Shown in pieces: positions 69 to 62,432 of a stretch of DNA of 64,000 bases (position 1 is the first letter of the stretch; each line of letters opens with the position of its first letter). Source of the DNA: Lingula anatina (taxonomy: Eukaryota > Animalia > Brachiopoda). The translations under genes and the position numbers were made by a program. The DNA lies in assembly GCA_051362555.1 (NCBI GenBank), contig CM120649.1, positions 15,066,001-15,130,000 on the forward strand, given 5' to 3'. A model generated the notes under the pieces. It worked only from the letters and a program-made list of their open reading frames with translations, made no database searches and was not told the origin of the DNA.

Positions 69-289
69 CTACATGAAAAGTGGCGCGAATACTGATACAA
101 ATAGTAAGGGCAGTGTGGTCATGGAAGCTTGCAGAAGTGTTGATCCCGAGAGGGCGAGAGCCAGCCTATCGTATTTTCCTCTCAATTCCTGTAAGGAAAA
201 ACGAAAGGAAAATGATCAAGACTTAGATGAGTGCCTCTCAAAAGCGAAGCAAAATGTACTGTCGGTATTTTGTAATTTAATGTGAAAGT

Positions 290-360
<71 letters not shown>

Positions 361-3300
361 TAATTTTTGCCATAATTACCCCAAAAATATCTATACAAAA
401 ACAATGTTAACCACGCATTTTCATTTCCGTTAATCACGATGAAATCAATTTGTCGATTAGAAATCAACAGATGTGACTTACTCTGATGCCACTTTTAATG
501 GACGCAACATCAGCTTTACTGTGGCTTAAATCTCCCTGCAGAGCACTTATCTTGCTGGACATGTCCTGCTGCAAGTCCTGTAATATTATCATTTTATCAT
601 ATTTCATTCCGTATAGATTAAATTGGTAGATTTCTGTATTAATATCAATTAATACATGACATTAATATAGCAGCTGTATTAATATAATCGTCAGGAAATT
701 GATTTTCTGTATATGCAGATTGCACGTTACAACGAATGAAGCTAAGGCCATACAAGTAATTTAAAGGGGGCCTTTTGAAATAACCTTTTTGGATATTCTT
801 TGTAAATAATTAGAGTATCAGATGCAGTTGTTGCAGATAAAACGTTGACGTCATCTACTGAAGTACTGGTTGACAACGTACATGTATACAGCTTAATAAT
901 GACAATATTTGCATAAATAAGTGCTCCAGAAAGGTTTACCGTTTTACTCTGGTCCAGCTTTGCTTCAAGAAGATCCAGTCGATGCCTACTGCGTTCAATC
1001 GCGTCATTTAAACTGTGTCTGATACTGGAAAAATTCTGTTGAAATAGAACAAAAATTAAATGCCGGAGCTTAGGATTAAACATGCTCTGTACACTGTCGC
1101 TTACGTCCAACAACAGGACAAATAAGTTTATTGTTTTTTTTATATTCTTGATTTATCTTTGAAAACACTCTCACTGTTAGTAGTACCTATACATACTTGA
1201 CATTTGCTTATTTTAAAGCCTCTGGCTAGAAAAAAAAAAGTATTATTATTCTCATTTGCTTAACTTACTTGCTGCATTAACAGCTCCAGCCTAGCCATCT
1301 TCCTAAAAGCCTCAGCTGTGCGGTTGTCGTTGTTATTTACCTTCCCACCGAGTCTTTCTACTTCTGCTACCAGTAACTGGAATACGAAATGTCACATCTT
1401 TTACAAATTGAAGCCTTGCAAAATGCTACGACGATTATTTCTTTAACATACATGTATATGAGGGACAAAAATTACTGTAATACTCATTCGAATTTTTGCA
1501 TTAATTCAACATCAGCAATATCTTTTTGCAGTTATCAAATGATATGTATTAATGCGTAAAATATTGAAAGAGATCTTTAAAAAAACAGCTGCTGACTTCT
1601 TAAGCTTGTAGCAATTATAAACAAAGCGCGACAATTCAAGATGGCATCGATTCAATGAACACGAGAGGTTGCAACACTCACCTCGTGATCTTGCATTAGA
1701 CTCTGAAATGAAAAGAAAAAATAATTTGTTACCAGTTTATGTTATGCAATTACCAAATATTACTTAAAGTTTAGAGAAAAAGTTCCTTTGGAGACATCAT
1801 TTTATTTAATATATTCTGTACCCGTCTTACGCGTTTCCCGGAAACCATGATATTACACATGCCAAACGTGAGGATTAGGTGACGTGGTGTTTAATACCAC
1901 AGGCAGGAAAATATTCAACAAAAAATCGCGTTTATTTAAAACAGAAAATGACATAAATACCGTTGCCCATTCACACATGACAGTGATCCGATCAATGCAA
2001 ATGAATCAGATTGCTAATACGCAAAACTACAAAATGTGTTTTTCTCTTGCCTTTAGATCATTAAAACTGTCATTCAGCAGTCGCTTGTATTCTACCAATT
2101 GCGCCTTTGTAGCCCCGTGCGATTGTGACAGATTCTAAAATACGACCAGAATGTGGGTTCTTTCAATTCACATTAAAAAATTATCTTTCATAAAATTCGT
2201 TCTTAATTTTAACTATTTAATTAGCATGCCAATTTTATTTTTTCATGTACGCTTCAAATATAACACCATTTAACATCTAAGATCACTGTGACGTCACAAT
2301 GACAATCATCAAAGGGCTGTAAATTAAAAAAAGGCAGACATCTTGTATTTTGTGGTAGGCCCTATTACGCCCTTTTCACAAATACAATCAACACAAAAAA
2401 TCTTATCTTTTATGATCTACTGGCTACAACTTAAATTCAAGATGACATGTAAATGTAATTACTTGTTATTACTCAAAACAAATAAAGTTAATGTGTTACT
2501 CTTACTGTTAGATGGTTAAAAAAATCTTCCAGCTGCTGGACATGTTCTGCCAATTGTGCCTTTGTTTTCTGGTGCGCTTGTGTCAGATTCTAAATTGAGA
2601 ACAGGATATCATGTGCTGCAGGTTCTCTCAATTCAATTTTTAAATTATCTTTTACAGTTTCAAGCATAATTCTGTGTGAAATAATCATGAACGGGTGCCA
2701 ATTTTTTTTCAGACCTCTACTTATAAAATATCAAATCAAGCATGCGACAGCTGAGATTACTGTGACATCACTATGACAACCATAGAAGGAATGCACATTT
2801 TAAAACCACAGCATGACATTTTGAAAAACACATCTTGTATTTTGTGTAACGCTTTTTCACATGTGCGATAAACCGCATAGTAAAATTATTAACGTTTTAT
2901 CATACACAGGCTTCAACTTCAAATCGAGGAGTGAAGGAATTGTTGATTCTATCAATATTTAAAAAAGTCCCGAATGACGTTTGACTCTTAACGATACTCA
3001 CTTTAATTGAATCATTATAATGACCCATCAGTATGCGGCGTTCTTGTTCAATGCTCAGATCCTGGAAAATTAATATGAATACATATACAGTTATCCGTCT
3101 TAAATAGCCGTTCGGAACACGTAAAAGGTCGACGGCGGTGAATGACTATGTAGGCCTAGATTTCTAGAGCATTTAAATCATGAATAGTAAAACTGAGGAT
3201 TTTTTTTTTTTTTTAATTTTTTCAGAACAAAATGAGGTAATGAATAAGTTTCAGATGATTTGTGTATATTATACATGTACGTTAGAAACAGATAAAAACA

Positions 3301-3827
3301 GAGATTACAGAGGACCTTTTTAAATAAAACCTACAAATGCACAAACAATACTCAAATATCCAGATTTTTTGTTACACCCAGAAGACTTAAGTCTCTATTA
3401 CACGAAAATTCTAAATTCTATTACACAAAAATTCTAGATTCAGCCATAATCTACGTACTTTTGTGGCGACCACGAAGTACTGCTCAATAGCCGACATCAC
3501 AGTACTGTTGAAAAGTCGAGATTTCAGCTCCGCTACGTCCCTGTATAATTTCGCTTCCTGTGACCTCAGTGGGCCCACAAGTATGAAACCGTACAGGAAC
3601 AACCCAACGAAAACGAGCGAAACGACTCCAAAGACTATAGCGCAAGTCTTTATGGCCTTTCCTTTATTCGAGCTGGCCCAAGGGCAACGGCGTAGACGTT
3701 CCGACGCCCGCGTTTCGTGAGGCGTTAGGGAGTCGAAACTGGTTCGCGTTTTGTCCTCATAGTCGGAAGCGCAGGTGCTCCCCTTTTCCTTCCACTGTGA
3801 TTCGGGGAAAACGTCCTCTCCCGACAT
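69..3827 (-). CDS. Type II membrane coiled-coil protein with C-terminal GPI-signal-like tail (tetherin/BST2-like topology), ~345 aa, 9 coding exons
   Basis: Manually spliced exons (minus): 3827-3459, 3061-3002, 2589-2506, 2134-2051, 1702-1682, 1376-1269, 1035-940, 577-482, 188-69 (TAG). All introns are phase 0 with polypyrimidine+AG acceptors and GT donors, except one AAG|GCAAG donor; the frame is open throughout. Product: ~60-aa N-tail ending KGKAIK, hydrophobic CAIVFGVVSLVFVGLFLYGFILV, heptad-rich ectodomain (e.g. LDLLEAKLDQSKTDLQQDMSSKISALQGDLSHSKADVASIKSGIRELRGKYDRL), 7 N-X-S/T sequons, ending LSGSTLLQASMTTLPLLFVSVFAPLFM*. The gene model is well supported; the functional label is inference. 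Confidence 0.85.
295..360. repeat. (TC)n(CA)n microsatellite
   Basis: Direct reading; lies in the last intron of the first gene. Confidence 0.95.
2051..2990. repeat. Tandem duplication of an 84-bp exon plus its upstream intron (~455-bp unit)
   Basis: Exons 2589-2506 (NLTQAHQKTKAQLAEHVQQLEDFFNHLT) and 2134-2051 (NLSQSHGATKAQLVEYKRLLNDSFNDLK) have the same length and similar sequence. Flanking introns share motifs (gat(c/t)actgtgac(g/a)tcac, catcttgtattttgtg) at a similar offset. Confidence 0.85.
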
Positions 3828-4481
3828 TGTCGTCCTACTGCTTTTACTTGTTGATGGTTGGTTAGGTTGAATTATTCAACTGAAAAAACAAAAATAAATA
3901 AAATATCATCATCATCATTATCATCATTAGTATTTTAATATTTTTATTATTAATGATGAAAGTGTTCTACTGTCATCAATTAGTTTTAAAAAAAATTTAA
4001 TAGATGAATAAAAATAGGTACCTTATTAACAAATGGACAAAAAGATGGCAAGATATTAAATGAATAGATCTAAAATTAAATGAACACATGAATAGAAAGC
4101 TTTTTCCCAGCTGTAACATGTACTCCAATTCGCTTTTTAAATATTCAGGCTAAATGTTCAAGTCTTTTTTTAAATAAACTTTTAAAAATCCCATGTGTTT
4201 GTTTTTATTTGTAATAGGAACCCTGTCTTTTCTGAATGTGTTAACTAACTGAAGTAAATTCAATTTATTATTGGACTTGGGCCAGTGAAGTTTGGTTCGG
4301 GTCTGTAAGTTGAAAAGGATTTGCCACAGTCTCAAGTTGTATAATGCGTCCTATGATAAGACCGGGGAATTTACTGAGTCGGAATATTTTTCTTCTGATG
4401 TCAGACTGCAAATAGCCTTATCTTTCACATTTGATAACATTGGCAGCAAAAATCCCCGATAATAGTACATATATAGTGTAA

Positions 4482-4621
4482 CAGGCCCGTAGCCAGCAAT
4501 TTCAAAAGAGGGGTTCTTTTTATAAATAAATGTACCTCAATAAAATTTTACGCAGAGGGGACTTTTCCTACGGATCTGTGTAAAAAAAAAATAGAGTCCT
4601 CGTTCAAAAAGCTACAGACCT
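4482..4621. mobile_element. Degenerate MITE copy (CAGGCCCGTAGC... family)
   Basis: Starts caggcccgtagccag and ends ...gctacagacct; same family as the element at 49669-49860. Confidence 0.6.
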
Positions 4622-4764
4622 ACTATAACATAGGATGACTGGGTTAGCCCATGTGAAAACCCCCCTAGCTCTGTCTAGCCTTTGTGGTTGCATCAGTTTT
4701 AAATCTACGATTTTAGTTTTAAATACATCTGACGAACTCACCATGTACGCGGGGAAATTAACCA

Positions 4765-4777
4765 GGTTTCGGTTTCA
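4765..4777 (-). promoter_or_regulatory. IRF-E/ISRE-like motif
   Basis: GGTTTCGGTTTCA (reverse TGAAACCGAAACC) matches the GAAANNGAAA IRF consensus; ~940 bp upstream of the ATG of the tetherin-like gene. Confidence 0.4.
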
Positions 4778-6033: not shown

Positions 6034-6044
6034 GGGGATTCCCC
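6034..6044 (+). promoter_or_regulatory. Canonical NF-kB (kB) site
   Basis: GGGGATTCCCC fits the GGGRNNYYCC consensus exactly; lies between the tetherin-like gene and the protease gene. Confidence 0.45.
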
Positions 6045-7051: not shown

Positions 7052-7064
7052 TGTTTCACTTTCT
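7052..7064 (-). promoter_or_regulatory. IRF-E/ISRE-like motif
   Basis: TGTTTCACTTTCT (reverse AGAAAGTGAAACA), a classical IRF1/2-type site, next to a candidate minus-strand donor (CAG|GTAGGG at ~7017). Confidence 0.4.
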
Positions 7065-7389
7065 AAAACAGTACAGAGTTATTTGCCCCGAGCTGTCCTC
7101 TTCACAAACTTCACACTGGTAAAAACACAATTGCCAGCAGCTCTTGTAAGCTACGTAACTGTAGTCCTAACCGGCAATAGGCCTATTAAAAGCAAGCACG
7201 TTCTGAAACAAACATTTTTAGAATCTACGCATGCTCAAAGCGACCGAATTAGTTCTGGAATTTTTTAAGGGCTTTCCCCTTTGTGGTAAATAATGCTGAC
7301 GTAATGCTGACTTATCTACAGGTTAAGTTCAGGTATCAAACATGCGCCCAGTAAAGCTAAAGTTCGGTTTCATCATTATTCATATTATG

Positions 7390-10079: not shown

Positions 10080-12757
10080 GTCAGATTTTCATAATGAAAA
10101 TGTGACTCCCCCTATGAAATTTTGACTCCCCCCAAAAAAACATTCATTAATCTCATTTTATTTGAGTAAATGACTATGATTTTGTAGTATGCATAATGGA
10201 TGATACATTGGCACTTTTTTGTAGTTTGCAGGTGAAAATTTTCATTTAAAAAAAGAAAAATTAAAAATGTGCACATAATGAAAATCTGACTCCCCCATGA
10301 AAATTTGACTCCCCCTCCACAAAACTTCATAAATCTTATTTTATTTTGAGTATATGACTGTGATCCTGTAGCATGTAAAATGGTTGATACATTGGCACAT
10401 TTTTTGTAGTTTGCAGTGAAAATTTTAATGAAAAAATAAGAAAATTGAAAATGTGCACATGGTTAAAAAATTGAGAGAAAAAAGTAACAAAACACATGAA
10501 AGTAAGAAAAATTAAGGATTTGTTTGCTAACACCCAATAGCTCCCCTATAAAAAGCTATTTATGTGATGTTTGATGATCATTCTGACAACTTTTCTTTTA
10601 TGATACTTTATGAAAAAAAATTATTGGAAATATTAAAAAGTTTTATGGTAAAATACTGCGTGAAAATAAATGAAAAATGGATAATAAATTTGCATTCTTG
10701 TACCCGTAGGATTTTGACTCCCCTAGTTAAAAGCACTTATTTCATATTTAGCACACATTTAAATGTTTCTACTTTTTAGTTTTCTTATGGAGAACTGTTC
10801 TGTTCAACATATTTGGAATGTTCAACATATGTGGAATATTTAAATTTTGTGGGTAAAAATTTTTGCAATAAGTGTTTGAAATTTAAAAATAGTGAGAAAT
10901 TCAGTATCATATTTATTTTACACCCATGAAAAGGACAATTATTTTTTATTCAGTCACTATTTTCCACATAATTTTCATTGTATATATAATGATAACTCTG
11001 CACACTAAGCTATATGAAAATAAAAATTGTTTTGTGTCATATCAGAAAAGAATATTTTTTCAATGAAGTGCATACAATATCAACAAAATGTAGATGAATG
11101 TAAAAAGGATCCACTGAGACAAGAAAATTCTGCTTCTCTTCAATATTTTACCTTATGGCAGTGAAAACTTAATGATTACTTTGCACACTAGGCTAAATCA
11201 AAATACTTTTGCCCCTTAACTAAAAAAAATCATATTGGAATTTAAGAACACAATAGTAAGGAAATATCACCAACATGTGAATAATGCTGCTAAAAAATTC
11301 TTAATTTTGACAAAGGTTATCACCACCAAACTTTCAAATGTGATAGGACTGTGACATGCTTGGTGGTAACTTATTCATATGTCGTAGCTTAAAGGAAAAA
11401 AATATTAAATATGAAACATTTGATTTGTAAGATGGGTCGTCAAAGTCCTATGGGCGCAAGAATGCATACTTATTATCCTTTTTGCTTAATTTACCCCCAT
11501 CTTTCATCCAGCTTTGGGGAAAATAATGGGAAAACAAAAGCAAGTGTTTTGTTGGGTATGCTATATAAGAAGAATTAAATAAAAAGGCGATGGGGCCAAT
11601 TTCTTGTGTTAAAAATGTAGTGTTTTGACATGGGAGTGCAAAACCTACAAGAATAAAGATGGATACTTGTTTTAAAAATATTGACCAAAATTTTCATCAT
11701 CAAACTTTCAAATAATGACAAAATATCCATCTCTATGCAAAAAATGTGGAAAACAGTGGTATGGTGACTGAATATAAAATAGGTCCTTTTCTCCATGGGA
11801 GTCCAAATCTCATGGGTGTAAAAATAAAGATTTTCATGATTTCTTTTTCATGCTTTCACTATTTTATCATCAAACCTTTAAATATTTCCAATATATTTTT
11901 CATAAAGTATCCTAAAAGAAAAGGTGATGAAATGATCATCAAATATTTTAATAACTTTTTCATAGGGGAGACAATAGGCGATTAAGTGGACATTTTTAAT
12001 TTTCTTACTTTTTCACATATTTTTTCACCTGCAAACTACAAAAAAAAAAAAAAAAAATGTGCCAATCTATCCTCCTTTTTACATACTACAAGATCACAGT
12101 CATATACTCAAAATAAAATAAGATTTATGAAGTTTTGTGGAGGGGGAGTCAAATTTTCATGGAGGAGTCAGATTTTCATTATGTGCACAATTTAATTTTC
12201 TTATTTTTTCATTAAAATTTTCACTGCAAACTACAAAAAATGTGCCAACGTATCAACTATTTTACTTACTACAAGATCACAGACATATACCCAAAATTAA
12301 ATAAGATTTATGAAGTTTTATGATGGGGGAGTCAAATTTTCATGGGGGAGTCAGATTTTCCTTATGTGCTCATTTTTAATTTTCTTATTTTTTCATTAAA
12401 ATTTTCACTACAAACTACAAAAAATGTGCCAATGTATCCTCCATTTTACATTCGACAAGATCACAGACATATACCCAAAATAAAATAAGTTTTATAAAGT
12501 TTTATGATGGGGGAGTCAAATTTTCATGGGGGAGTCAGATTTTCATTATGTGCTCATTTTTAATTTTCTTATTTTTTCATCAAAATTTTCACTGCAAACT
12601 ACAAAAAATGTGCCAACATATCATCCATTTTACATACTACAAGATCACAGTCATATAGTCAAAATAAAATAAGTTTTATGAAGTTTTATGATGGGGGAGT
12701 CAAATTTTCACGGGGGGAGTCAGATTTTCATGGGAGTCAGATTTTCATGTTACACCG
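10080..12757. mobile_element. Foldback-like non-autonomous element with inverted arms built of ~183-bp tandem units
   Basis: About 2 units on the left (10090-10460; atgaaaat(c/g)tgactcccc..gaaa.tttgactcccc) and about 4 units in the opposite orientation on the right (11990-12750; ggggagtcaaattttcatgg(g)ggagtcagattttc). The AT-rich interior carries degenerate mirror motifs. The right end is GTTACACCGG. No transposase. Confidence 0.7.
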
Positions 12758-13541: not shown

Positions 13542-16500
13542 ATGGTAAGATATTGAAATTCGTAAAACATCAAATTTATAAACAATGTCAACCGTTCGTA
13601 AATGATTAACTACATAATCACAAGGTGTTATGTACATGTAGGAGAAGGAAATGGGGTTTTGTCGATAGTCGATAAAAGCACTAAAACATTCCATAGAGAT
13701 GGCCTCTTTTATAAAGAAATTGAATAGAAACTATGTACGGGCGTTGGAATTAATTTAATAACTACATGTGCAGGGCTTATCCAGGATAAAATGAAAGGGG
13801 CGGGGGGGGGGGGGGGGAGGTCCAGAACGACATGCATCGAATGCAAAGCCAACCATCACCCTCTTTAGGTTCGGGGCCCCGAAATATTTTTAGTGTTTTA
13901 GAGGGCAAACGGTGCCCTTTGGTGCGGTTTAAAACTATGATTCAGCTAGTCATAGTTCTAATTTCAAGAGGGGAATATTGGTATATTTTTCAGAAACCGA
14001 AGGGGGGGGGTCAGGACCCCCCCCCCCCCCCCGACTCCCCCTCTAAATCCGCCACTGATGTGTCCATTGCAATGTCCATGCATGAATAGTGATTTCGTAA
14101 CTGTGCAACATTAATAATTGATTCTAATGTACATTGTAACTGTATTGTCAGCTGTAGAATTGATTATATATCTTTGTAGGCTCTCAATTCGCTTGCTAAG
14201 CTGATGGAAATGATAGAATCCCATTCTACCAAGCTACAATTCCCCGCCACGGGAAATTTCAAGTATAACTACGTCAGAGAGAGACTTTTTGCTATATTTC
14301 AAGAGACGTATATAAGGAAACTGCGTGGCATGCTCTCGTGGACAAAGTCTGAAATTGTTGAGGTGGTTGTCTTTGGAGAACATGCTGTTGGGCTGGCTTC
14401 TCAAATGCAGTCATGTGGATTCAAAAGTGCAGAAGCTTCAAAACCAGAAAAAGACATACCACGACTGTTCATTTTTGCATCAGAAATATCCCCCACAAAA
14501 GAGGTAAGTTTGTGTTCGAAAATACTTCAGCTACAGAAGTTTATTCGCATTTAAATCTTCTCGCTTCCAGCTACATTAAAAGAATGCGTGGTTCTCCTTT
14601 CGGCAGAAAGGTTGTTTCTTGAGTTTCTTTGTTTTTTTTCTAATTTTTGATAATGCTATTTTCCAGGACGTAGAACTTTTACAACTGGTGTTGAATCAGA
14701 CAAAAAACGAAGCATGCTCTTTGGTAGCTGTCGCATTGACATCGGATGTTATCAGTCAGAAAGAGCGCCTGGTAACAAAGGAAGATATTGTTAAAGAGAT
14801 TTTACTGGAATGGCCCGCTGGTCATGTTATACTAACAAAAGCACTGGATGCTATATCCAGTGATATTTTGTTTTGGAATAACGAAAGAAGTATAACAGAG
14901 GAAGTGTTTCTTTATATGCTGGAAGCTGTAGAAAACGTCATGACGGACTTTTTGAAAGTTGTTCAAAATTTGGTCGCTGGCTTGGAAGATGTGTTGGAAG
15001 TAAAGTGCAATCTAGAGTCTAAAATACAGCAATATTTAAATTCAAATCGCAAAAAAATAGACCAGTGTGCAACCACAATTGTTTTGAAGAATCACCGAGG
15101 CAGGTTAATTCGTAGAAGGCTGTTCTTCGTTCAAAACAAGGAAACACTCGCAAACTTCACATTGCAGATCAGAAAAAAACTCATTGAAATAATGAGCCAA
15201 GGAGTAATTCATCTTGCCGATGAAAGTCAATGCGGGGTAGAGTCTGAGCTCAGTATGGAAAAAATCATGGCCTCATTCATGAAACATATACCGAAACCTG
15301 GTCCTGGGCTCTATCCTACTTTGCCACAGCCTGTGGATGTAAATGGGGAAAGCTTTCGGAAAATGGTCGCACTGGACTTTCACAATGACGTCACAAAACA
15401 GAGCGACAACATCACACGAACATTGCTTTCTTCCATTTACCAGTCGGACCCCGATGATGACGATGACAGACCAAAGACTGAAGACTTTGAAAAACTCAGA
15501 CTTTTGCATTTAGAAATGAATAAACTAACCTCGAATATCAAAATAAACAGAAACCCACGCGATGCATCTCTGCTTCAAGTCCCGATAATTCCCGATCCGG
15601 TGAAGGCAGAGTTACACAAGTAAGTACATTAAAAGAAAATTAACTTAAATTAACATACATTCAGGAGCTGAATCATTTATACGAAACATGCATGTAACTA
15701 TAGGGATTTTTGTCCATAATGTTTTTAGATGTTAAGTGTAAAATTTCACAAGCACCATAATACAATGTATTCTTTTAGAGAAGAAATAGGACAAGGTCGT
15801 TTACATTAACACACTAGTAGAACTGAATGCTGTGTTTGATATTGTTCAATTTTATTTCACAGAAAGCCCTTCATTAGAGCGTTTGGCATCATCTTTGGCA
15901 AGGTCCACATCTTCGTACAAGCGGATCTATGGCGCCAAGAAGAAGAAAAACTTCTCATAAAAAGCGAAATTGAACGTATTGTGTCTGATGATGAATTCTG
16001 CCAAGACTTCTGTATTGTGGAGTGGTCTCCAAATTCAAAGATCACTCCCTACGGTTTTGGCGTGGGATCGATGCTGTCCATGAAGCAAGATAGAAATCCC
16101 CCGTTTGGTACAGTGGGGTGTTTCGCGTTTGTTGACGGGATGGTCCAAGAGGTTTATGCTCTCACTGGTGCTCACGTGGCTATAAAGTGCAAGTACGTTG
16201 AGCACGAAGGTGGTTTTCTTCGAGTAGGCCAGATCGCATATTCGAAACCAGCCCAATTGGTAGTCTCGCAAGTGGACAGACCTCCCTCAGATCTGGTCGA
16301 CATTGCCTTCATTCGATTAAGTGCTGAGGCAAGGAGAGCGTATGAAGGGGTTTTCATGGTACATGGTGAACCACAGGATTGCAGGTTGTTTACGGATGGT
16401 TTGGAATCTCTCCACGGCGAAAGAGTTCACAAAAATGGCGCGGCTACTGGATATACCGAGGGGATCGTTGTTGGTACTCTTCACATGAATGGTATGTTTC

Positions 16501-16766
16501 AACGCTTTTCTAACCTTCTGTTAGTGAAATCAGTGGGCAACAAGCCTTTCTCGCTGGATGGCGACAGTGGTAGTGTGATCGTTAAGAAGTCGGATTGTGC
16601 CCCGAACTCCTTGTTGGCAGTTTCGATGATCTTTGGTGGACTGGATATAAGGGATGGACCAATGTCAAAAGAATCTGAAGTTACAGTAACATTTGGCCTG
16701 TGTAAAGCTATAACTGACGCCGAGTTCAAACTTCAAAGACGTTTTCGGCTTCAGCCAAGCCCATAA
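13542..16766 (+). CDS. Intracellular trypsin-like serine protease (Nal1/Ssy5-type C-terminal domain) with long N-terminal region, ~727 aa
   Basis: Exons: ATG only 13542-13544 (|GTAAGA), 14180-14503 (|GTAAGT), 14667-15619 (|GTAAGT, phase 2), 15863-16766 (TAA). Total 2184 nt, frame continuous. Catalytic motifs: GTVGCF..YALTGAHV (His), VDIAFIRL (Asp), FSLDGDSGSVI (Ser), plus VHKNGAATGYTEG. No N-terminal hydrophobic signal. Confidence 0.88.
13771..14057. mobile_element. G/C-run MITE with CAG...CTG termini and 5-bp TSD (ATGTG)
   Basis: atgtg|cagggcttatccagg ... taaatccgccactg|atgtg; in intron 1 of the protease gene. Confidence 0.75.
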
Positions 16767-31180: not shown

Positions 31181-33105
31181 GTTTGTAGGTGTGTAAAGTG
31201 AACAAAACACTGTGAAATATGCTGTCCTCTGTTTTCACCGCTGTGAAATTGCCTGTCAACAATTTTGTCACCAAGCTGCACTTGGTAAAGAGGTTGTCCC
31301 GTATGGGTCACAGAACCGCCAAAAAGGCTGGATACTTTATGGTAGACCTCAGAAACTCAACAGGTGCGCCTCTTTTTCGCCTGTCCTTTTTTAGTGTCAC
31401 CACCTCTCTCTCGTGCTCCGCGTTCTCTCTCTCTCTCTGTCTCTCTCTCTCTCCCTTGCCTCGCCCTCTTTCCTTTCCAAGTGAGGTGCGTTGGATGCCT
31501 GCTACCCGCGGTGGCTCGAGTGTAGTTAACGCCCTTCCTTTGTCAATATGGACCGTATTATATTCCCTGCTCAATTACATTCGGGGGCAGTTATCGAATA
31601 ACAATAATACGCTGGCCTTTGTGGCATTGTAGCAAGGATTTCTTAATACAGCAAACAATTGGCGATGTTTTCTGATGGTATACTGGAATGGAGGTGGACG
31701 TGAACAATATTGTTTACAAAGCAGAAGATGGTGTTTTTTCTTTTGTAGCAAGAATTATTACAATTGATAATATGACTTGGCCTAGTGCACCAATTTATAT
31801 ATAATTTAATCAATCGCTAAAAAGACACTTATTAATGTACTTCTTTTCTTAAAATGATTAACGGTAAAGTGGACCGTGTTTTTTAAACATTATCATGGGC
31901 CACAGTATGATTGAAAAAGATGCTACAAGTTTGTGAGCGCGGTTAATGAAACAGAAATTCAGCCGCATTTATTGCGCTCCTTTTAATCAAATATAACCAA
32001 ATATAGATTCAGTTTTGAGCAAGAGTGGACAATTTATTTCGAAAATATGAAAATTAGCCCGGTAATTAAAAGTTGAATGTCGTCTGCAGCATAGTAAATG
32101 GAAACGGTGGACTACGTGTCACCGTACTCACATTGAGTAGATAACTTCCCGATTTTTATTCATAAGATAACTGAAGAAGCCAAGGACAAAAAAGGAGGCG
32201 TGGTGATCGACACATGATAACTGCAATAAGTAGCCACCTGTTCAGGGCGACTGATAAGAGGCTCTGAAATCGTGTTTTATTGAAAAAAATAAAAACCGCT
32301 TTGTCTTTACGCTGGAGACGTGTTAAAATTGTTCGCCCTGCCCTCCAAGTCCACCCCCCCCCCCCCCCCAAAGATAAAAAAATAAATGCGTCTTAAAAAC
32401 AATTCACAGCAGAAAATGTTAAGAAAGAAGAAAAAACAGAGAATAAGTCAGCGAGAATGCTTAACGCATATTCGTCTGTGTGTACGCAATATTGAACAGT
32501 TCTCAGTAAGTCAAATATATAGCGCACCCAAACACACAAACACACGAAACATGGGAGTACAGGTTAACCTAATACAAAAGGTATTACGTAGACCCTCCCA
32601 AGTGAAGTATTTGTTTTTAGCAGCGTGACTGGAATAGGGTTATGTTTAATGGAAACACAATGGAGAGAGGTATACAAAGTCATAAATGAAACACGCGGGT
32701 TTAAGGTGGTCACTTTAGTCGCCGTAACCGCATTTTCAGCCTGATTAAGTAAGACCAAAAAAGTCTAAGGGCTTATTCACAATGAAACTATCGATCTACG
32801 TAGATAGATCCAAGTTCGTGGAACTCATTCTGAATGCAATCAGATAAACATTTTAATGTTAAAACAGGTGTTGAATAGAATAAAAAAAGTTGGTGATTAT
32901 ATTGGGTATGCATTGTCAAGTTTTTTATCACTCTAAAATTATCTTAGCCCGAAAAAATAAAAGATTTTTTCACAACTCAGTGTTCTGCAGAAAAGTTTAT
33001 TTCATTTTCTTTTGATAATAAACAATTTAATCGTGTATAATTGTACAAAAAGAATGCATACACTGGAAGTTGACGTATTGCAAGGGCAGTCACTTGATCC
33101 TTTGT

Positions 33106-33465
33106 GGAGAATTAAACTGATACGCATAACTTATTGAAGCCTATTATCCTATATGGAGCATTAAACTGATACTCATAACTTATTAAAAACCTATTATCCT
33201 ATATGGAGATGATACTCGTAATTTATTGGAGCCTTTTATCCTATATGGAGCATTAAACTGATACTCATAACTTATTAAAAACCTATTATCCTATATGGAG
33301 ATGATACTCGTAATTTATTGAAGCCTTTTATCCTATATGGAGAATTAAACTGATACTCATAACTTATTAAAGCCTATTATCCTATATGGAGATGATACTC
33401 ATAATTTATTGAAGCCTATTATCCTATATGGAGCATTGAACTGATAATCATAACTTATTGAAGCC
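33106..33465. repeat. Minisatellite with ~41- and ~50-bp unit variants
   Basis: Repeats of ggag(cattaaac)tgatactc(a/g)taa(c/t)ttattgaagcctattatcctatat with no unique spacers. Confidence 0.9.
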
Positions 33466-34627: not shown

Positions 34628-36013
34628 CACACACTGGACAAAAGAAGTGTCACCCCTACTGAGCCAATACTATGGGGAAGATAAATGGCTGTGGAATGAT
34701 ATGCTCCTGGTATCATTTTATTAACATCAAATTTCACAAAAAATCACAAAATGAGAAGAAAATATACATTCTATCAAAATATGCAGTTTCAAGTCCAAAA
34801 TTAGTACTTAGTGGCATAACCACGTGACCTAATAATAGGTGCCAGTCTACGAAGCAGGGATTCATATAATTGTCTGATGCGTTCAGGGATTACGCTGGCC
34901 CAAGCATGAAACACTGAATATAACAGAGTTTCTCTGCTGGTTAGACGGACATTTGTAAAAAGTTTTGACATATCATTCCACACATTTTCTATTATTTTTG
35001 CATCCGGACTCTGGGCAGGCCACATCACCCTGCAAATGTCCTGTTGGTCAAAGCAATCATCAACTGCTCTGGGCCTGTGACAAGGAGCATTGTCATCCTG
35101 GTGAACAAATGGATAATTCCTGTCACCAAACATGTTAGTAATAGATGGTAGCAAGCCTGACTCCAAAACATCGATATATTTCTAGTGATTCATGTTTCCA
35201 TTAACCACTATCAATTCGCCCAAGCCATGGATGCCTATGCAGCCCCACACCATGATGAATATGCTTCTCCGGGTTCGAAAATTCGGTGCATGTGGTTCAA
35301 ATGCTTTACCAGCAGTTTGCCAGCATAGTACCCGTCTGTCATCAGAGGTCAGACCAAAGCGACACTCATCAGAAAAAATATATAGGACCAATTGTCAGGA
35401 ACTGTCCAGTTCCAGATCCTGTTGACCCTAGTTTACTCTACGTTGCCTGTTTTGTAACGACATAAGAGGTTTCAGTCTTGCTACCCTGCTGTACACTCTC
35501 TGAGCATGTAACCGACGCCTAGCAAATTTCACAGACACATTCTTATGTGTGAATTTGTTCCACTGTGTTGTCAATTGACAAGCATTGTCGAACTTTGACA
35601 ACCTGGAAATCAAAATCAGTCGTCGGTCTTCACGGCCGGTATTTTTTCTTGGACGACCCATCAGAGGCAATTTGTCTCTTGATCCAGTGTTTCTATACCG
35701 AGACCAGACCCTCTGCACGGTTCTGACTGATCAATTCAATTGCATCGATATTCTGACATTGCTTATATCCCGCCTCTTCAGGTTAATAACTTGCACCTAT
35801 AACTGTTAGATAATTGCCTGTATCTTGCCATATTGGAGGAAGACAGGAATAACATTTGCTGTACATGTACAAGACCAACAATACAATTCCATGGTATAGC
35901 GGTTTTATACTCATTAGTCACATTATAAGTAGACCAGGCATTATAAGTACCCAAGATCTGCCTACTTTTATTACTCTGAGTTAGGGGGTGACACTTCTTT
36001 TGTCCAGTGTGTG
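34628..36013 (-). mobile_element. Tc1/mariner (DD34E) DNA transposon, full length, transposase disrupted
   Basis: 29-bp TIRs CACACACTGGACAAAAGAAGTGTCACCCC at both ends, flanked by a TA TSD (34626-27, 36014-15). Transposase fragments: GRPRK..EDRR (DNA-binding region), FSDECRF, MVWGCI, QDDNAPCH...WPAQSPDAKIIENVW with exactly 34 residues between D and E, ending RGYATKY*. Confidence 0.95.
34801..35831 (-). pseudogene. Tc1 transposase pseudogene
   Basis: Split into ORFs 35428-35718, 35182-35391 and 34801-35166 by stops/frameshifts; a likely original start MARYRQLS near 35831 is also broken. Confidence 0.9.
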
Positions 36014-36313: not shown

Positions 36314-37199
36314 TCAGTACCGTTTATTATAATCATACTCATAACCCCCTCCATGGTAGCTGGGGCGATACTGGTAGCCTTGGTTTACGTATCCGCCGGT
36401 AGGTGGCTTCTTGTAAGACCCGTGATCGTCGAACTCTGTACCGTACGGACTGAAAACTGCATGTCCTTGCTTCTGGCTTATATAGTCATTTTGACGCTGC
36501 TGGGGGTACTGCGGATAACCCCCCGCGGCGTATGCGTACGCAGGTTTCCCACCTTGGTCGTGATTTCCGTTGTATTGTACCATTCGCATGGCTCGATTTT
36601 CCTTGAATAAAAGAGAATCGGTAAGCTACATCACTAAATAAGTGAATGGATGAGGCAACCCATTTAGATTCAATAACAACTGACAACAGTTTATCTTGAT
36701 AGCAATAAATTACAGCTATCCAAATCGTTAAACAAAACGTCTTCAACTCATTTTCCAACCTGAGACCGTTCTAGTAAGTAAAATAAAATTCATGATGAGA
36801 GACCTTTCTTATTTTAAGAAAATGTATATTATTGAAGTGGGACTTAAACTGCATTAAATTGAATATGTTGCATCAGTGATACCTCGACCCCTGTTCCACT
36901 TTTACTTACCTCCATCTCTCTCTCCATCGTCAATTCACGGAAATAGAACCCCACGCAAATAAGAGCATAGATCTGAAGAAACAATGGCAGAATGGCATTT
37001 TTGAACGAAAGGATTGAGCATAATGATCGGTGCCTTAGGAAATATTGAAAAATGATTGAAAAATTCTCAGATTCATCTCATTTGAAAGAAAAAGTTAAAT
37101 GAGCAAGAGGATTTGATACTTCACGTGAAAAAACTTTAATTACGGAATTGGATTGAGGCAAAAATCAAAATATATTTTCTGAGATTAAAACATTTAATC

Positions 37200-37240
<41 letters not shown>

Positions 37241-38552
37241 CCACTTACGTCAAACACTATTATGAGGAAAAGTACTCCTACAATAACCCAGAAGAGCCAG
37301 AATGTGTCTGAAAAACAAAAAAAAATTAAGGTTCACTTCATGATATTTAACCGCTAAATGGATTTCCCCAGGAAAATAAGCGAATGTGCAGGTTTGCGTT
37401 TATGCTTGTGTTAATAGTTCAATGTCTTTGTAATAGTGTCTTCACACCTCACAGTGACACTTTCATATACTCACAGAGCAGCACGACCCCATATACGAGG
37501 ACGAGGACGAGAACAGCAATCAGATACAACGTGGCTAGAATGGTGAAGACAAGCCACGGGACGAGACACCAGCGATTTTTCTGGAGAAAGAAAAACAAAT
37601 TTATAATGAATTGAAAAAAGAGTAACAATTGGCAAAAACATCACAGTAAATCAGATGAAGTTAACATACAAAATATTATCCGCGCGCATGGCGCGCAGTT
37701 CGCCCTTTCGTTTGCAAAGTTATGCAATGGCTGGTTTCAGAAATTTTAAACGAAAATTCTAAGAAATGTTGACAGAAATCTGGCCTAGATAAATCCATAA
37801 AAGACCATTTGTATAAAGCCATTATTGATTTGAAACATAAGCCAGGTTTTTTTAATTATCTTCAAATTAATTATATTAATTAATTAATATATTTTTTTAT
37901 TATTTTATTTTATTATTATTATTAATTTTTTTTGTAAAACAGTCGCCGTAATTCGTTTACTTGGGGTAACACTGATTTAGAATCAAAGACGGCTAACATT
38001 TAGGTTAAAAAAATAGGCTTTTATTCAGAGTAAATAATAATAATAATAATAATAATAATTATAATAATAATAATAAACTTTGGAACTACTCACGACACAA
38101 ATTCCAGCGAACAGAACAATGCAGGAGATAAACCATAGGAAAGATACTGCCAGCCCCACGTACACAGTGTATTTATTTTGGAACCCATAGATTGTATTTA
38201 AAACGCTGGCTGTGTCTGGTTGACCTGTTCCTAGGGATTCTCCGGCAATTTCAACTGGAAATTAAAGAGGGTGAATATTATGGACAAAGTGCAAGCAGAA
38301 CAGTAAATTTTATATATGCCTCAAATCATATAGCAAATCATACAGTCCTCTTTTGTATTTTGAAATTACAGTTCTTAAATCAACTTCATTCTGTGTTCTG
38401 TAGTTATATTCTAATGATGTTTTATTTATAGATTGCGTTTTTAATAAACTATTATTTCAAATGTAAGAACATGTAAGACAAGTTGCTAAGGTCTTGAGGC
38501 ACCATGTGTACTATGTTTTATATTTAGGACACACGAGAAAAAAGCCTTAGAA

Positions 38553-38591
<39 letters not shown>

Positions 38592-40503
38592 CATATACTA
38601 GCACAAGCTTGACAAGAGAAAATACAACAAAAGCATACATACGCGTTATCACAAAGAAGATGTAGGCGGCTAAGGCTAGCGATGCAAATAACTGTAAAAA
38701 ATAGGAAATTATACATTATATATATATTTGCAATGTACATGTATATAAGTTTTCTATTGAGCTAGTGGCACGATTAATATTATATGCCTTTGCCTTTGCG
38801 TGAACAGTAGCGTGTGCGCACACGTAGGTGTAACTATTAGAATCCATGGGTGCATTAAAAATAAATACATATTTTTAAAAAGCGCTGTTAATAATTATTG
38901 ATGTTGAAAAATCCAAAAGGCAAAACCACAATAATACAGAGAACAAGCAAATTTGGGTGGGGATCACTTTTTCAAAGAGTGAGTAATCACAATTAACAAT
39001 TGGCGGGAAACGCCTTTAATACTAGGCGTGGCCGTTTCAGAAGGTGACAAAATTCTACTTGTTTAAGTATTGTGCAATAGGTCATACTAAGACGTATTTG
39101 TCTAACGGATTACGTAACTGCACGTCTGGGTAAACAGGAGTAGGTCTAGGTGTTGGTGTTTAGTGCTTTATATCACTGGTCTGTGTGACAGGTATATACT
39201 TAAACCTTGAACTGTTGGCAAATAATGCACTATCGAATAAATTTGTCGTCAAATTTCTAAAGCTGACCTATTTTTAGGCATACCTTAGAGACAGGAACAA
39301 TGGGGAAGACTCCATGTAGTATATTGATCTGTATGGGCAAATGGCGTAAATGTATGAGCTAGTGTGGGTTATTCCATTGTGAAGGATCGGAAAGAGCCTT
39401 AAATTACTCATGGACCTAATGAATTACTACAGTAATTAGGGCCATGAATTACTACAGTATTTCTTGCATTTTTCTGTATCTACTGTAGCATAAGTGCACA
39501 ATGTTCGAAGCATGTGCACAATTTGTGAGATTTTGGCCAGAGGGGACGCGTCAAGCCCTCATCCAGATTGTCAAATGTCAAATATATACAATATGATCCA
39601 AATTAAAACCCAACCACATGGATGTACGTGCATGTTTATATACCTATATGGAAATGTCCGTACTTTATGCATGGGCGATGAGCACACACGAGTCTGTACT
39701 TTTTAACGCAAAATCAGCCAATTTACTAAAGATAGGTGTACAATTTACAATAAACTGAGGGATCAACCACCGTTTAATAACCCTATATGATTTAATACTA
39801 GGGGCTACATGTACCTTATCTAAGTGTGGATCTAAACATTGACATACATGTAAATTGTTGCTTTGGGGCATAAAATGGAATGTGTATATACATGTACATT
39901 GTACATTGGCGTGAAGTTACTTGGCCAAAGTATTTCGTATATAAACTGTGTATTCATGTAGTTTTCCCAATGGTTCGCATTTTATATGTGCGTATGTTGA
40001 AAGACGGGGAAATGCAGCCACACCCTGGGAAACCTTAGCTACCAGTCGGCCTTGTTCGTGGAGCCTGGGGATTTGAACCAGCAACTTAATAAATGGTGGA
40101 ATCTTAAAATGGTCCTGGTGGTACCTAATAAACTTGAAGTACTTGCGCTACATTTGTGAAATATAAAACATTTTCATGGCCGTAGGTTTACCCTTTATAC
40201 AAGTACATGTAGATCCGCACGTGTGCATTAATATTTCTCCCATAATATTCAAATTAATGGAGGTGTTAACAAAGGAGAATGAATTAAGAAGTACAATTAC
40301 TAACGTGAGACGTAACCTGTATACATATATATAGAACTCTATGAAGCAGTCAAAACAACTCCAAATCAATCATAGACTGTACTGTGAAAAGGAGACTCAT
40401 GAAGTTAAACTTAAAGGTCTATACATGTGGTACCTACCAATCCCCATACACCGCTGAATACACTCCCCGTACGTAAGCTACAGCAGCAACAACACGTCTT
40501 CAT
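36314..40503 (-). CDS. Four-TM LAPTM4/DUF4728-like membrane protein, paralogue C (~263 aa)
   Basis: Exons 40503-40438, 38691-38643, 38254-38094, 37580-37475, 37307-37249, 36972-36910, 36601-36314; same phases. MKTCCCCCSLRTGS..., KNRWCLVPW, IYALICVGFYFREL, long Tyr/Gly/Gln-rich tail ending YEYDYNKRY*. Confidence 0.9.
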
Positions 40504-43500
40504 CTTGGTAGCGTGTGCTCTTCTCTACCCTCGGATGCGCCAACAAGTATCAGACAGAAACGACTCCAAGTCCTGTAATAAGACTCTCGAGATGACTGGC
40601 CAAATTCGATGCTTGTTCTTCGAAACTCACTCGACTAGCCACTAATGTGTGAAATTTCTCCCAGATTTCAAACTTCCGAATTAAGTTGCTGTAGGTGGCT
40701 AAGAAGACTGTACCTTCCAAGTTTCAGGTACCTCACAGCCGCTGCTTGGTGTGACGCAGTTAGAGTACTTAGATGTATAGTAACGCTATCCAAGGCGAGT
40801 GCTGAGAGTCATTCTAGCACAAAGACTGGTGGCACACAACAGTAGATCCTTAAACTCTCCCCTCTCAGCGCTGTCTTATATGATTATTTACACCTTCTTT
40901 TGGTCTGTACACACAAATGTTACACACGTGGATGTGTATACAGTGTAATAACTATCCATAAAACCCCTGTCTATCTGTCCCCGCTATGAAGACGCTCGTG
41001 GCAAGAACTTCAAGGTGAAAACGATGTCCGGGTTATGTAGGTGTCAGCACAAGTGAGTACACGCCCGAAATATCACCCAGTTTAATAAAGCATGACACAG
41101 GTGAGGGGACGGGTTAAGTCAATACGACGTCCGCGCCATGAGTTATTTGTATTGTTTGTTCTCAGTGGCACCTTATAGCCAATACAATGTGTTGTCTTAA
41201 TGCACCGCTTAACACATTGTGTTTTCTGAATTGAATAATAACAAGGTTAGCTCATGTATTGCCAGGTCATCGTTTTACTATGCATATGCATATACAGGGG
41301 TACCTGTACATGTTCGTTTATATGGAGCGATTCCCTATTATTTTCATCAGTCGATACTATGCTCCTTCGAATCCATCACGCATGGGTATTCTCCTAGTAC
41401 AAAATATATCTGATTTTCCCTCTGTTTAATCATTGCTTTAATTTTCTGTTTTACAACTTATATTCAGTGAAGCATTACAGACGTTCTCTTTCAATTAATG
41501 TTGATTTTTTTATTGTACGGAATACATGTACGTTTTGCAATTCTTTTTCACAAAAAATCAATGTTTTATTTCGTCTGTTTCAAAGAGGTGGCTAAATGGC
41601 TAATGACTGAAATAAAGATGTGTTTATAATTTTTCTCAGCTTGTTTACAATGTAATCCTGTTTACCGCCTCATTTGGAGTATGCCGAAATGTACCCCCTG
41701 AAACCTTAATCGTTTGAAATGGACCTTATCCCGAAAAATTACCCTTTTCCCTTATATCTCGGTTTCCTCTCTCCCTTTATCAATTGCATCACAGGCAATT
41801 ACATGTAAAAGTTTACGACCATCTCTTGACCTAGACAATGGTGTGTTACACTTGACAAAAAATTGAAATAAAATTAGCAGCTCCTCGACCACCGGCCTTG
41901 AGATTTTACAATAGGATGGGGAAATACGGGTTATTATTTTCGACAATAATGATGGTATTTTTTATTATTATTATTATTATTATTTTTTTTTTTTGGATGA
42001 TTTCTGATAAAATCCGTGACATTGCACATCATAGGAGGACCCAGTGAGGAAAGAGAGAGAGAGGAGCGTAGAAAACCGAGGATCGAGATTTTCCCGTTCA
42101 CATGGTATAGTGGACCCTACAGACTTCAGTCAGGTTTTCAGTCAAATCCTACAATAGTTTGTTTACCCAATGTGCTAATACGATGCACATAATCGTGTTT
42201 ATTAAATGACACCTCGAACTTTATTTTTTGGCTTAATTCTTATCGATAAAATAAAGAAAAAACAAACTGACTACTACATTGCGATATAGAAGCCAGTGTT
42301 GTCTTCGCTGACACATTTAATAAGGGCTGTAACGTAAACTCGTACTCCCCCCAACATTATTCAATATGTTACTGCTCACTTCCCTTGTTATGAAAAGTAG
42401 TCATATATCTTGCTATTGTTGGAGACAATGTAATTATAATAAAGTACATTATTTATAGCTTATATTATGCCTGTTGATGACAAAAATTTGAGAAACCATT
42501 GTAAAGGGGTTTAAGGGCTGCTTTGCTGCTGATATCAATTACTGGGGGGTGATCGAAAGCAAAACTAAACCGATAAAAAAACAACCCAATCAAACTGCAG
42601 AGAATATTCACATTTATACAACATACTTTATTACAAATCGGCGAAATTGTACATACAAATGTAAAATCCAAGGAAATTTATATAGTGTTAAAATTTCAAA
42701 TGGTATAATGTTTGAATAGATCAAATAAAGCTACGGACTGACCTGGTTTCAATTCTCTTTCGTTCGCATAGTGCAAATGCCACAAAAAATAATGACATTC
42801 GGTTGTACGGGTTTTATAAAGTATTTAGACAGCTATCGTGACCACAAACATTAGTTAGCCAAACGTTTTGTACTTGAACTACTAAAAGGGCACTCGCATC
42901 AAATGTCGCGTGAGAAATAACAACAGTACCGAATGAGTTCTAACGGCAAACATACATGTGTGCATCTGCTTACCCTCTCCCAAGGCCGCATATTAATAAT
43001 GTGCACTTTTCTCACCTAAGACATCTGTATATATGTAGTGCAAAAATTGATCTGTGATCCTGGTAGAGAGTGTAGACTTCTGATCAAAACATACTAATAA
43101 TAAATGACTAAGTTTCCTACCATGTGCGCACAAATGTACTTCGTAAGTGAGTAATAATCTTTAAAGTCGATTAGAGCAAAATTTCCTACTAATATACAAT
43201 GTACTAGTAGTCGATACCAATGGATATTTCAGTTTATGAAAAATATCTCGCTTCAAGTAATAAAGAGAATTAGAGTGTATGCTGCCAGGGAAATTTTCTG
43301 CACAATGTTACATTTGTTTTACATGTACCACTCAAACAGCAAACTTACAAATATTTCAAAATACCTATATAAGATCCCGATTATACAAATATTGAAAAAA
43401 AAAACATTAAGAAAATATGGAAGTTTTGATTTATGAAAGAGTAATAATGGGTAAACTTTGATAAATCCTACAAATCACTGCAGACAAGAATACTATACCA

Positions 43501-45135: not shown

Positions 45136-62432
<17,297 letters not shown>

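What the first reader, a model, noticed from the sequence alone, without database searches (positions are those of the whole stretch)
69..3827. Invertebrate gene encoding a protein with tetherin (BST2)-like double-anchor topology: TM - coiled coil - GPI signal
Seen: the ORF track shows only exon 1 and one internal fragment. Splicing nine phase-0 exons gives ~345 aa with a cytosolic N-tail (basic KGKAIK before the helix), one TM, ~230 aa of heptad-rich ectodomain with 7 sequons (NST, NDS, NLT, NLS, NDS, NRT, NFS), then small residues S-G-S, a spacer (TLLQASMTT) and a terminal hydrophobic run LPLLFVSVFAPLFM* with no cytosolic tail. Established: this N-TM/coiled-coil/C-GPI architecture is the hallmark of vertebrate tetherin, it is very rare, tetherin orthologues are recognised by topology rather than sequence, and topology alone can suffice to trap budding enveloped virions. 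Inference: this may be an unrecognised invertebrate tetherin analogue (convergent, or related to PLVAP/BST2) or another membrane-bridging protein. Differences from BST2: the ectodomain is about twice as long and has no Cys for disulfide dimerisation.
Basis: partly seen in the sequence, partly recalled or inferred. Interest (0 to 1): 0.9.

Follow-up and report, generated by a model that had tools for sequence, protein, structure and literature searches.

The report
Brachiopod orphan with tetherin-like double anchor
A real, spliced and expressed gene of the lamp shell Lingula encodes a protein predicted to be a long helical rod with a membrane-spanning segment near one end and a likely lipid (GPI) anchor at the other, the rare layout of the vertebrate antiviral protein tetherin, but it shows no sequence kinship to tetherin and whether it traps viruses is untested.

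Summary
Observation confirmed. Nine phase-0 exons give 345 aa. All 8 introns are joined in RNA reads, and reads run through the stop codon. The only real relatives are Lingula anatina proteins, including a 438-aa paralog with the same tail. Type II topology is well supported (7 sequons against 1.6 expected). The C-terminus fits a GPI signal by my own rule only; a short second TM is not excluded. Membership of BST2 is not supported: no Pfam or PDB match, no ectodomain Cys, no YxY, no CILP2/PLVAP neighbour recognised. New here: rod length varies (about 27, 35, 48 nm) by register-keeping exon modules; read differences look weakly constrained (pN/pS 0.71); and the upstream 4 kb holds 2 of the window's 3 strict ISRE-like motifs plus a kB palindrome, found post hoc. 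Best reading (0.42): a convergent, immune-inducible membrane tether that works like tetherin. Non-immune bridging is the main rival (0.28). No function was tested. The scan noted the same layout once before, in an arthropod (unchecked).

The parts
3459..3827 (-). Coding exon 1 (aa 1-123): 61-aa cytosolic tail, TM, juxtamembrane helix. The exon likely starts at a splice acceptor at 3879.
   Evidence: joint 3060/3458 in 70 X6 reads; acceptor candidate 3879
3576..3644 (-). Predicted type II signal-anchor TM, about aa 62-84
   Evidence: KD peak 2.59; flanks 6 basic/1 acidic on the N-side against 5/3 on the C-side
3002..3061 (-). Exon 2 (aa 124-143), start of the heptad region
2506..2589 (-). Exon 3 (aa 144-171), four heptads
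2051..2134 (-). Exon 4 (aa 172-199), four heptads; duplicate of exon 3 with its intron; followed by a GC-AG intron
   Evidence: 56% aa identity to exon 3; 1995-2331 vs 2447-2805 66% DNA identity; GC joint in reads
1682..1702 (-). Exon 5 (aa 200-206), a 21-nt micro-exon of one heptad
   Evidence: joints on both sides in reads
1269..1376 (-). Exon 6 (aa 207-242), with a Gly/Asn-rich break in the helix
   Evidence: helix break at the matching place in the paralog model
940..1035 (-). Exon 7 (aa 243-274); one R-h-x-x-h-E motif at aa 261 (recalled as trimer-associated)
482..577 (-). Exon 8 (aa 275-306); core of the 46-aa module present three times in paralog P0002
69..188 (-). Exon 9 (aa 307-345 and stop): end of the coil, then a GPI-signal-like end (omega candidate S320, 25-residue uncharged propeptide, coded at 149-72)
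4766..4776 (-). ISRE/IRF-E-like motif GAAACCGAAAC, 34 nt 5' of a strong splice-donor candidate at 4742 (possible non-coding first exon; not seen in reads)
   Evidence: depth 0 in that bin in four low-coverage runs
6034..6044 (.). Palindromic NF-kB-like site
7053..7063 (-). ISRE/IRF-E-like motif GAAAGTGAAAC, 45 nt 5' of the best-scoring donor candidate at 7018 (possible non-coding first exon; outside both read lays)
7269..7371 (-). Cluster of a partial ISRE (7371), a CRE-like site (7304) and a relaxed kB-like site (7278); may equally serve the divergent neighbour gene

Best explanation
The gene is spliced and expressed in Lingula and encodes a protein predicted to be a 27-48 nm glycosylated coiled-coil rod with a membrane-spanning anchor at one end and a likely GPI anchor at the other, which likely arose independently of tetherin and, probably switched on by immune signals, would hold budding enveloped particles on the cell by leaving one anchor in each membrane. 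Steps: (1) exons, expression and C-terminal stop: shown. (2) N-in type II topology: strongly inferred. (3) Helical rod: predicted; oligomer state unknown. (4) GPI transfer at about S320: inferred from sequence rules (about 0.7; otherwise a short second TM, which still gives two anchors). (5) IRF/NF-kB control: inferred from post hoc motifs. (6) Trapping of virions or vesicles: by analogy with tetherin only.
For: Topology. The paralog P0002 keeps small residues, spacer, an uncharged hydrophobic tail and the stop (21 of 26 tail residues identical). My GPI rule passes 2 of 724 stop-ended frames of the window, one being this gene's own exon-9 frame; thresholds were set after seeing the sequence. 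Topology alone can restrict virion release: an artificial TM-coil-GPI protein did so (PMC3989765, PMC3235769, passages), and PLVAP and TMCC(aT) gained activity when given a GPI (PMC9599465, PMC10617486, passages). Cys-linked dimers were dispensable for rabies VLP restriction (PMC10624315, abstract) and, per PMC3235769, for filovirus and arenavirus particles. Immune-gene traits, all circumstantial: orphan and duplicated; 30 of 43 coding read differences non-synonymous, pN/pS 0.71; TM the most diverged part against the paralog (7 of 23 vs 42 of 322, Fisher p=0.03, post hoc); 23-974 reads per Gb among three runs of one study; 2 of 3 strict GAAASYGAAAS matches in 64 kb lie upstream on the gene's strand (0.33 expected in the window; P=0.0003 against shuffles of the 4-kb tile, and 1 match in 14 other tiles), each 34-45 nt before the two best donor candidates (about 1% of positions have such a donor). 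Mollusc IRF1 binds ISRE (PMC13524488, passages); Lingula has RLRs (PMC8998645, passage).
Against: No functional data. No ectodomain Cys in this copy, while all-Cys loss abolishes HIV restriction by human BST2 (PMC3235769, passage). No YxY or YxxPhi motif in the tail. The rod is twice or more BST2's 117-aa ectodomain. Avian TMCC-L, predicted double-anchored, stayed intracellular and had no significant antiviral activity (PMC10617486, passage), so the layout does not guarantee the function. pN/pS 0.71 is below 1 and not different from neutral (p=0.29); it pools alleles, paralogs and populations and uses only 43 differences (34 coding rows of the 40 shown out of 209, plus 9), so positive selection is not shown. 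Motif pattern and region were chosen after seeing them; the loose GAAANNGAAA count is 3 upstream against 0-2 in other tiles. The first exons are unconfirmed and the 7.0-7.4 kb cluster may belong to the divergent neighbour. Expression differences may be tissue or stage. An IRF gene in Lingula was not checked here. The AlphaFold2 model is low confidence (pLDDT 56.8, pTM 0.31).
Confidence: 0.42

Rival explanations
1. Same double-anchored rod, but a non-immune spacer or bridge: it links microvilli, Golgi cisternae, vesicles or gamete membranes, or fences membrane microdomains, with rod length tuned by exon number.
For: Topology evidence is identical. Tetherin itself has non-immune structural roles (apical actin, microdomains, hamster GREG in the Golgi; PMC3989765, passages). 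Register-keeping length variants suit a molecular ruler. Fast evolution, duplication and sample-specific expression also fit gamete or tissue-specific proteins (own knowledge).
Against: Does not explain the ISRE- and kB-like motifs upstream. A housekeeping organelle role fits poorly with a protein found only in Lingula.
Confidence: 0.28
2. An immune surface protein derived from a type II TM plus coiled neck receptor (C-type lectin or scavenger-receptor type, probably trimeric) that lost its head domain and gained a hydrophobic end; it acts as decoy, spacer or self marker, not as a tether.
For: Lectin_N (PF03954) is the sub-threshold Pfam hit that spans TM plus neck in all three proteins (E 0.0003-0.02; 15-21 bits against cut-off 28.3). 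Many sequons and small phase-0 coil exons recall lectin necks and SR-A stalks (own knowledge). One RhxxhE motif (link to trimers recalled). Compatible with the upstream motifs.
Against: No longer relative with a head domain was found (lengths to 2000 aa; the tool calls this weak evidence). The Lectin_N score is compositional-level. Core a/d positions are mixed and do not single out a trimer.
Confidence: 0.17
3. The mature protein has one anchor only: the weak C-terminal segment is neither GPI-modified nor inserted, or the N-terminal anchor is cleaved, leaving an ordinary TM-coil or GPI-coil surface protein.
For: The tail is only moderately hydrophobic in this copy (19-residue KD 1.75, two prolines). 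No trained GPI predictor was available. Databases hold forms without the tail: P0001 ends by read-through into intron 6, and P0003 has another, charged C-terminus.
Against: The last 31 residues are uncharged and the arrangement is kept in the paralog with a more hydrophobic tail (last-14 KD 2.82). P0001 and P0004 end in intron read-through typical of partial models, whereas reads splice on through to exon 9. No Met lies between residue 1 and the TM, so the TM is not an N-terminal signal peptide.
Confidence: 0.11
4. A true, highly diverged ortholog of BST2/PLVAP/TMCC(aT).
For: Tetherin orthologs are found by position and structure rather than sequence (PMC10617486, passage), so a failed sequence search alone does not exclude it.
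Against: No BST2 or PV-1 profile match; no conserved Cys or YxY; no CILP2, PLVAP or MVB12A recognised among the window frames scanned; no relative outside Lingula.
Confidence: 0.02

Closest known systems
Tetherin / BST2 / CD317 (jawed vertebrates)
   Same: Cytosolic N-tail, single type II TM, N-glycosylated coiled-coil ectodomain, C-terminal GPI-type signal with no cytosolic tail; gene duplication and length or splice variants, as in bats (PMC9599465, passages); ISRE-type upstream motifs (candidate here).
   Different: No sequence or profile match; tail 61 aa against 21; ectodomain 236 aa (327 in the paralog) against 117; 7 sequons against 2; no ectodomain Cys in this copy; no YxY; nine coding exons of heptad modules; no CILP2/PLVAP neighbour recognised; function untested.
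PLVAP (PV-1) and TMCC(aT)/CCDC194
   Same: Type II TM plus long extracellular coiled coil; avian TMCC-L has a second hydrophobic end (PMC10617486, passage).
   Different: PLVAP lacks a GPI signal (PMC9599465, passage); no PV-1 Pfam match here; no synteny seen.
Type II TM + coiled neck receptors (hepatic lectin / C-type lectin necks, class A scavenger receptors)
   Same: TM followed by a glycosylated coil built of small in-phase exons (own knowledge); weak Lectin_N score over TM plus neck.
   Different: No head domain; ends in a GPI-like signal; score below the family cut-off.
Other TM + GPI double-anchored proteins (Ctm prion form, ponticulin, Sm23, NcSRS2)
   Same: Two kinds of membrane anchor in one chain; listed as the only others in PMC3989765 (passage). 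Sm23 is an invertebrate example.
   Different: By my recall none is a single TM plus long coiled-coil rod; no sequence relation was found in any search.
Lingula anatina LOC106157207 (P0002), LOC106157202 (P0001), LOC106177974 (P0004)
   Same: The family itself, annotated as uncharacterized. P0002 is 296 of 345 aligned residues identical and full-length; P0001 differs at 3 of 242 residues and P0004 at 1 of 105.
   Different: P0001 and P0004 are partial models; P0002 has two extra 46-aa modules and a Cys at the TM edge. P0001 and P0004 may be alleles of the window's gene (1.6% heterozygosity, PMC4595640, passage).

Membership tests
BST2/tetherin | N-terminal cytosolic tail and single type II TM | tested here: met
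   KD profile, charge bias and sequon enrichment p=0.00015; prediction only
BST2/tetherin | Extracellular coiled coil | tested here: met
   Periodicity in aa 124-206 and 225-315; near-continuous helix in a low-confidence model of the paralog
BST2/tetherin | C-terminal GPI signal in the sequence | tested here: met
   Small-residue site, spacer, uncharged hydrophobic end, kept in the paralog; own rule, not a trained predictor (layout from PMC5054108, passages); transcript ends there
BST2/tetherin | Actual GPI attachment | not testable with these tools
   needs biochemistry
BST2/tetherin | Sequence or profile similarity to BST2 | tested here: not met
   Absent from 23 and 15 Pfam families at E<=10, from the best 25 of 38 for P0002, and from 22 and 8 PDB sequence hits
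BST2/tetherin | Ectodomain cysteines for disulfide dimers | tested here: not met
   No Cys after aa 62 in this copy; one at the TM edge in P0002
BST2/tetherin | Cytosolic YxY endocytosis/signalling motif | tested here: not met
BST2/tetherin | Position between CILP2 (or MVB12A) and PLVAP | tested here: inconclusive
   Upstream 60 kb shows a Nal1/S64 protease gene, a Tc1-type transposon and unidentified multi-TM exons; only 68 nt downstream are in the window and no genome is held
BST2/tetherin | Parallel homodimer | not tested
BST2/tetherin | Induction through ISRE/IRF | tested here: inconclusive
   motifs present upstream; start site and induction not shown
BST2/tetherin | Retention of budding virions | not testable with these tools
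   needs a release assay
PLVAP (PV-1) | PV-1 profile match | tested here: not met
Type II C-type lectin / scavenger receptor | C-terminal lectin, collagen or SRCR head | tested here: not met
   Transcript stops in exon 9; no head-bearing relative
Type II C-type lectin / scavenger receptor | Lectin_N (TM + neck) score above cut-off | tested here: not met
   15-21 bits against 28.3

The most novel reading that the evidence does not exclude
Lingula has invented tetherin a second time: an IRF/NF-kB-driven, fast-evolving gene family of TM-coil-GPI rods whose length is tuned in whole heptad modules by exon duplication and skipping, physically trapping budding enveloped viruses. It would be the first virion-tethering restriction factor outside vertebrates and would show that invertebrate interferon-like responses end in the same physical trick.
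Probability: 0.3. Interest if true: 0.88.

Novelty: new variant of a known kind. Interest (0 to 1): 0.62.

Why it matters
Reviews call the TM-coil-GPI layout nearly unique (PMC3989765, PMC3235769, passages) and date tetherin to early vertebrates, more than 450 million years ago (PMC10617486, passage). Because the layout alone can trap virions, any lineage could in principle reinvent it, yet my searches found no invertebrate case in print. This gene gives a cheap direct test: one expression construct in a standard particle-release assay, with natural 27, 35 and 48 nm length variants as a built-in ruler series. It also offers a candidate effector downstream of the RLR/IRF pathway of lophotrochozoans. 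If it is inactive, it still shows that the layout recurs for other jobs, which weakens topology as a way to call tetherin orthologs.

Tried and rejected
No genome was held for the window, so downstream synteny, paralog count and paralog promoters could not be examined. No RNA holder was listed by index; runs were added by species label and laid instead. ESM Atlas: no usable feature hit for P0002, structure rows TM<=0.32. Foldseek against PDB: 0 matches at E<=0.001, only generic long helices. PDB sequence hits were generic coils or TM helices. DUF1664 passes its Pfam cut-off on P0002 and P0003 (48.8 and 48.6 bits against 34.6) over the repeat region, but not on P0004 (20.2 bits); I treat it as a coil-composition match. 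Representative-library hits P0005 (repetitive frame) and P0006 (probably prokaryotic coil repeat) were rejected as chance. The kB-like site at 4558 lies in or beside a repeated element (4482-4537 matches 49805-49860) and the ISRE-like 9-mer at 13993 sits in a G/C-run element in an intron-like stretch; both were set aside. No tandem paralog lies inside the window. Blanco-Melo 2016 and Heusinger 2015 are not held and are known to me only through citing passages; Gerdol 2018 on Lingula immunity was seen only in reference lists. These papers and their supplements may list invertebrate TM-coil-GPI candidates or Lingula IRFs. One search found no paper with all five terms on ectodomain length. Earlier-findings look-ups by sequence and by place were empty.
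Full report
1. The observation. The nine exons lie on the minus strand at 3827-3459, 3061-3002, 2589-2506, 2134-2051, 1702-1682, 1376-1269, 1035-940, 577-482 and 188-69. All are phase 0 and give 345 aa. RNA reads confirm them: all 8 introns are among the 15 of 18 joints shown, including the GC-AG intron after 2051 and both sides of the 21-nt micro-exon. That lay used 88% likeness and pools paralogs, but allele-exact joints and 231 reads at 99% or better in run X6 show that the window's own copy is expressed. At 95% likeness five of the joints also appear in run X4. Reads cover the terminal codons and 35 run on past the window start; no shown joint leaves exon 9 for a later exon. An in-frame stop just before the ATG fixes the start.

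2. What it is. Exon 1 found two proteins among 133 candidates, both named Lingula anatina uncharacterized proteins. P0001 differs from the window's product at 3 of 242 residues; P0004, from the representative search, at 1 of 105. Both are partial models that end by running into an intron. P0002 is a full-length 438-aa paralog on the same contig as P0001, 296 of 345 aligned residues identical, with the same kind of tail. I infer from these identities that the window is Lingula. Nothing credible outside Lingula appeared in three word-index searches, in phmmer over 1.84 billion representatives (4 hits at E<=0.001: two Lingula, two rejected) or in the Atlas. Within the reach of these searches it is an orphan family of at least two loci.

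3. Topology. One strong hydrophobic segment lies at about aa 62-84. Its N-side flank has 6 basic and 1 acidic residue, its C-side 5 and 3; 7 of 13 Asn after it sit in sequons, against 1.6 in shuffles (p=0.00015; paralog 6 against 1.7, p=0.003). This supports an N-in, lumenal-ectodomain protein. Hydrophobic periodicity of 3.5-3.6 holds for aa 124-206 and 225-315, not for 86-123. A single-sequence AlphaFold2 model of the paralog is almost all helix after residue 56 but of low confidence, and Foldseek returns only generic helices. The last 31 residues carry no charge; S320-G321-S322 is followed by a spacer and a 14-residue hydrophobic end (mean KD 2.26; 2.82 in the paralog). This matches the four-part GPI signal in PMC5054108 (passages). 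My rule is hand-made and no trained predictor was available. A short second TM with no tail remains possible; it would still give two anchors.

4. A modular ruler. Exons 3, 4 and 5 are 28, 28 and 7 aa, and exons 2-6 sum to 119 aa, all multiples of seven. Reads show exon 2 joined to exon 5, skipping 56 aa (11 reads in X6), a back-joint from exon 6 to exon 2 (4 reads in X7), and a back-joint that repeats a 46-aa module, which stands three times in P0002. At 0.148 nm per residue the ectodomains measure about 27, 35 and 48 nm if fully helical. Whether these joints come from alleles, paralogs or alternative splicing cannot be told without the genome. P0003, a database variant of P0002, swaps the tail for a charged C-terminus; it was not among the joints shown.

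5. Hints of an immune role. Of 43 coding differences read are non-synonymous: pN/pS 0.71, not different from neutral (p=0.29). Six non-coding rows were left out and 169 rows were not shown. This indicates weak constraint, not proven positive selection. The TM is the most diverged part against the paralog (p=0.03, post hoc). Read counts differ 23- to 42-fold among three runs of one study, cause unknown. Exon 1 begins at an acceptor-like site (3879) with undiminished depth (151 at 3850), so a non-coding upstream exon is likely. The two best donor candidates in 3.9-14 kb are at 7018 and 4742, and each lies 34-45 nt after one of the only two GAAANNGAAAC matches in the window (that looser pattern alone is not above chance, 2 against 1.1). 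The strict pattern has 3 matches against 0.33 expected, 2 of them here (P=0.0003 against shuffles; 1 match in 14 other 4-kb tiles). A palindromic kB site lies at 6034-6044, and a partial ISRE, a CRE-like and a kB-like site at 7269-7371. ISREs are two or more GAAA repeats bound by IRFs whose contact residues are kept in invertebrates (PMC7819612, passages); mollusc IRF1 binds them (PMC13524488, passages). Against: pattern and region were picked after the fact, the loose pattern is barely above other tiles, no read confirms either first exon, and a divergent neighbour may own the far cluster.

6. Comparison with the known. It works on paper like tetherin: TM, coil and GPI (PMC10617486, PMC3235769, passages), a layout sufficient for restriction in an artificial protein and listed as shared with only four other double-anchored proteins (PMC3989765, passages). 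It fails membership: no BST2 or PV-1 profile match, no ectodomain Cys, no YxY, no recognised CILP2/PLVAP neighbour (downstream side not visible). The missing Cys matters for HIV but not for all particles (PMC3235769 passage; PMC10624315 abstract). A predicted double-anchored avian TMCC isoform was inactive (PMC10617486, passage), a warning against reading function from layout. A weak Lectin_N score over TM plus neck and one RhxxhE motif leave descent from a headless lectin-neck receptor open; oligomer state could not be modelled.

7. Novelty and verdict. Five literature searches (listings and abstract starts only) showed no invertebrate TM-coil-GPI tetherin analogue. The two key evolutionary papers were not readable here. 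What sets this case apart is the combination with an orphan, duplicated, weakly constrained, length-variable family and candidate IRF/kB control. Verdict: real gene; new variant of a known kind by convergence; immune tether 0.42, non-immune bridge 0.28, headless-receptor derivative 0.17, single anchor 0.11, true ortholog 0.02. Interest 0.62.

Noticed in passing
window 14180-16766 (+): Divergent neighbour gene, at least three coding exons, ending in a Nal1/peptidase S64 trypsin-like domain (Pfam Nal1_C E 4.9e-06; Atlas hits mostly bacterial Nal1 proteins plus a mollusc cluster). Its N-terminal exons have no Pfam match. Trypsin-like effectors occur in counter-invader systems (PMC8195603, passages), so it may be an immune gene sharing the upstream region.
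   Followed up: partly
window 34801-35730 (-): Tc1/mariner-type transposase remnants (DDE_3 and HTH_Tnp_Tc3_2, both just under cut-off).
   Followed up: partly
window 36314-47868 (-): Exons of a multi-TM protein gene with two similar alternative-looking exons (46279-46338 and 36910-36972) and a Tyr/Gly/Pro-rich last exon; no Pfam match for single exons.
   Followed up: partly
window 4482-4537: Short repeated element (also at 49805-49860) that draws thousands of partly matching RNA reads from other transcripts.
   Followed up: no
window 2051/1702 (-): Read-confirmed GC-AG intron next to a 21-nt micro-exon.
   Followed up: yes
window 10090-12731 and 33094-33465: Inverted and tandem repeat clusters in the intergenic DNA.
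   Followed up: no
P0002 aa 65-86: The paralog's TM has gained Lys and Asp near its ends and a Cys at the outer edge that could cross-link chains.
   Followed up: partly
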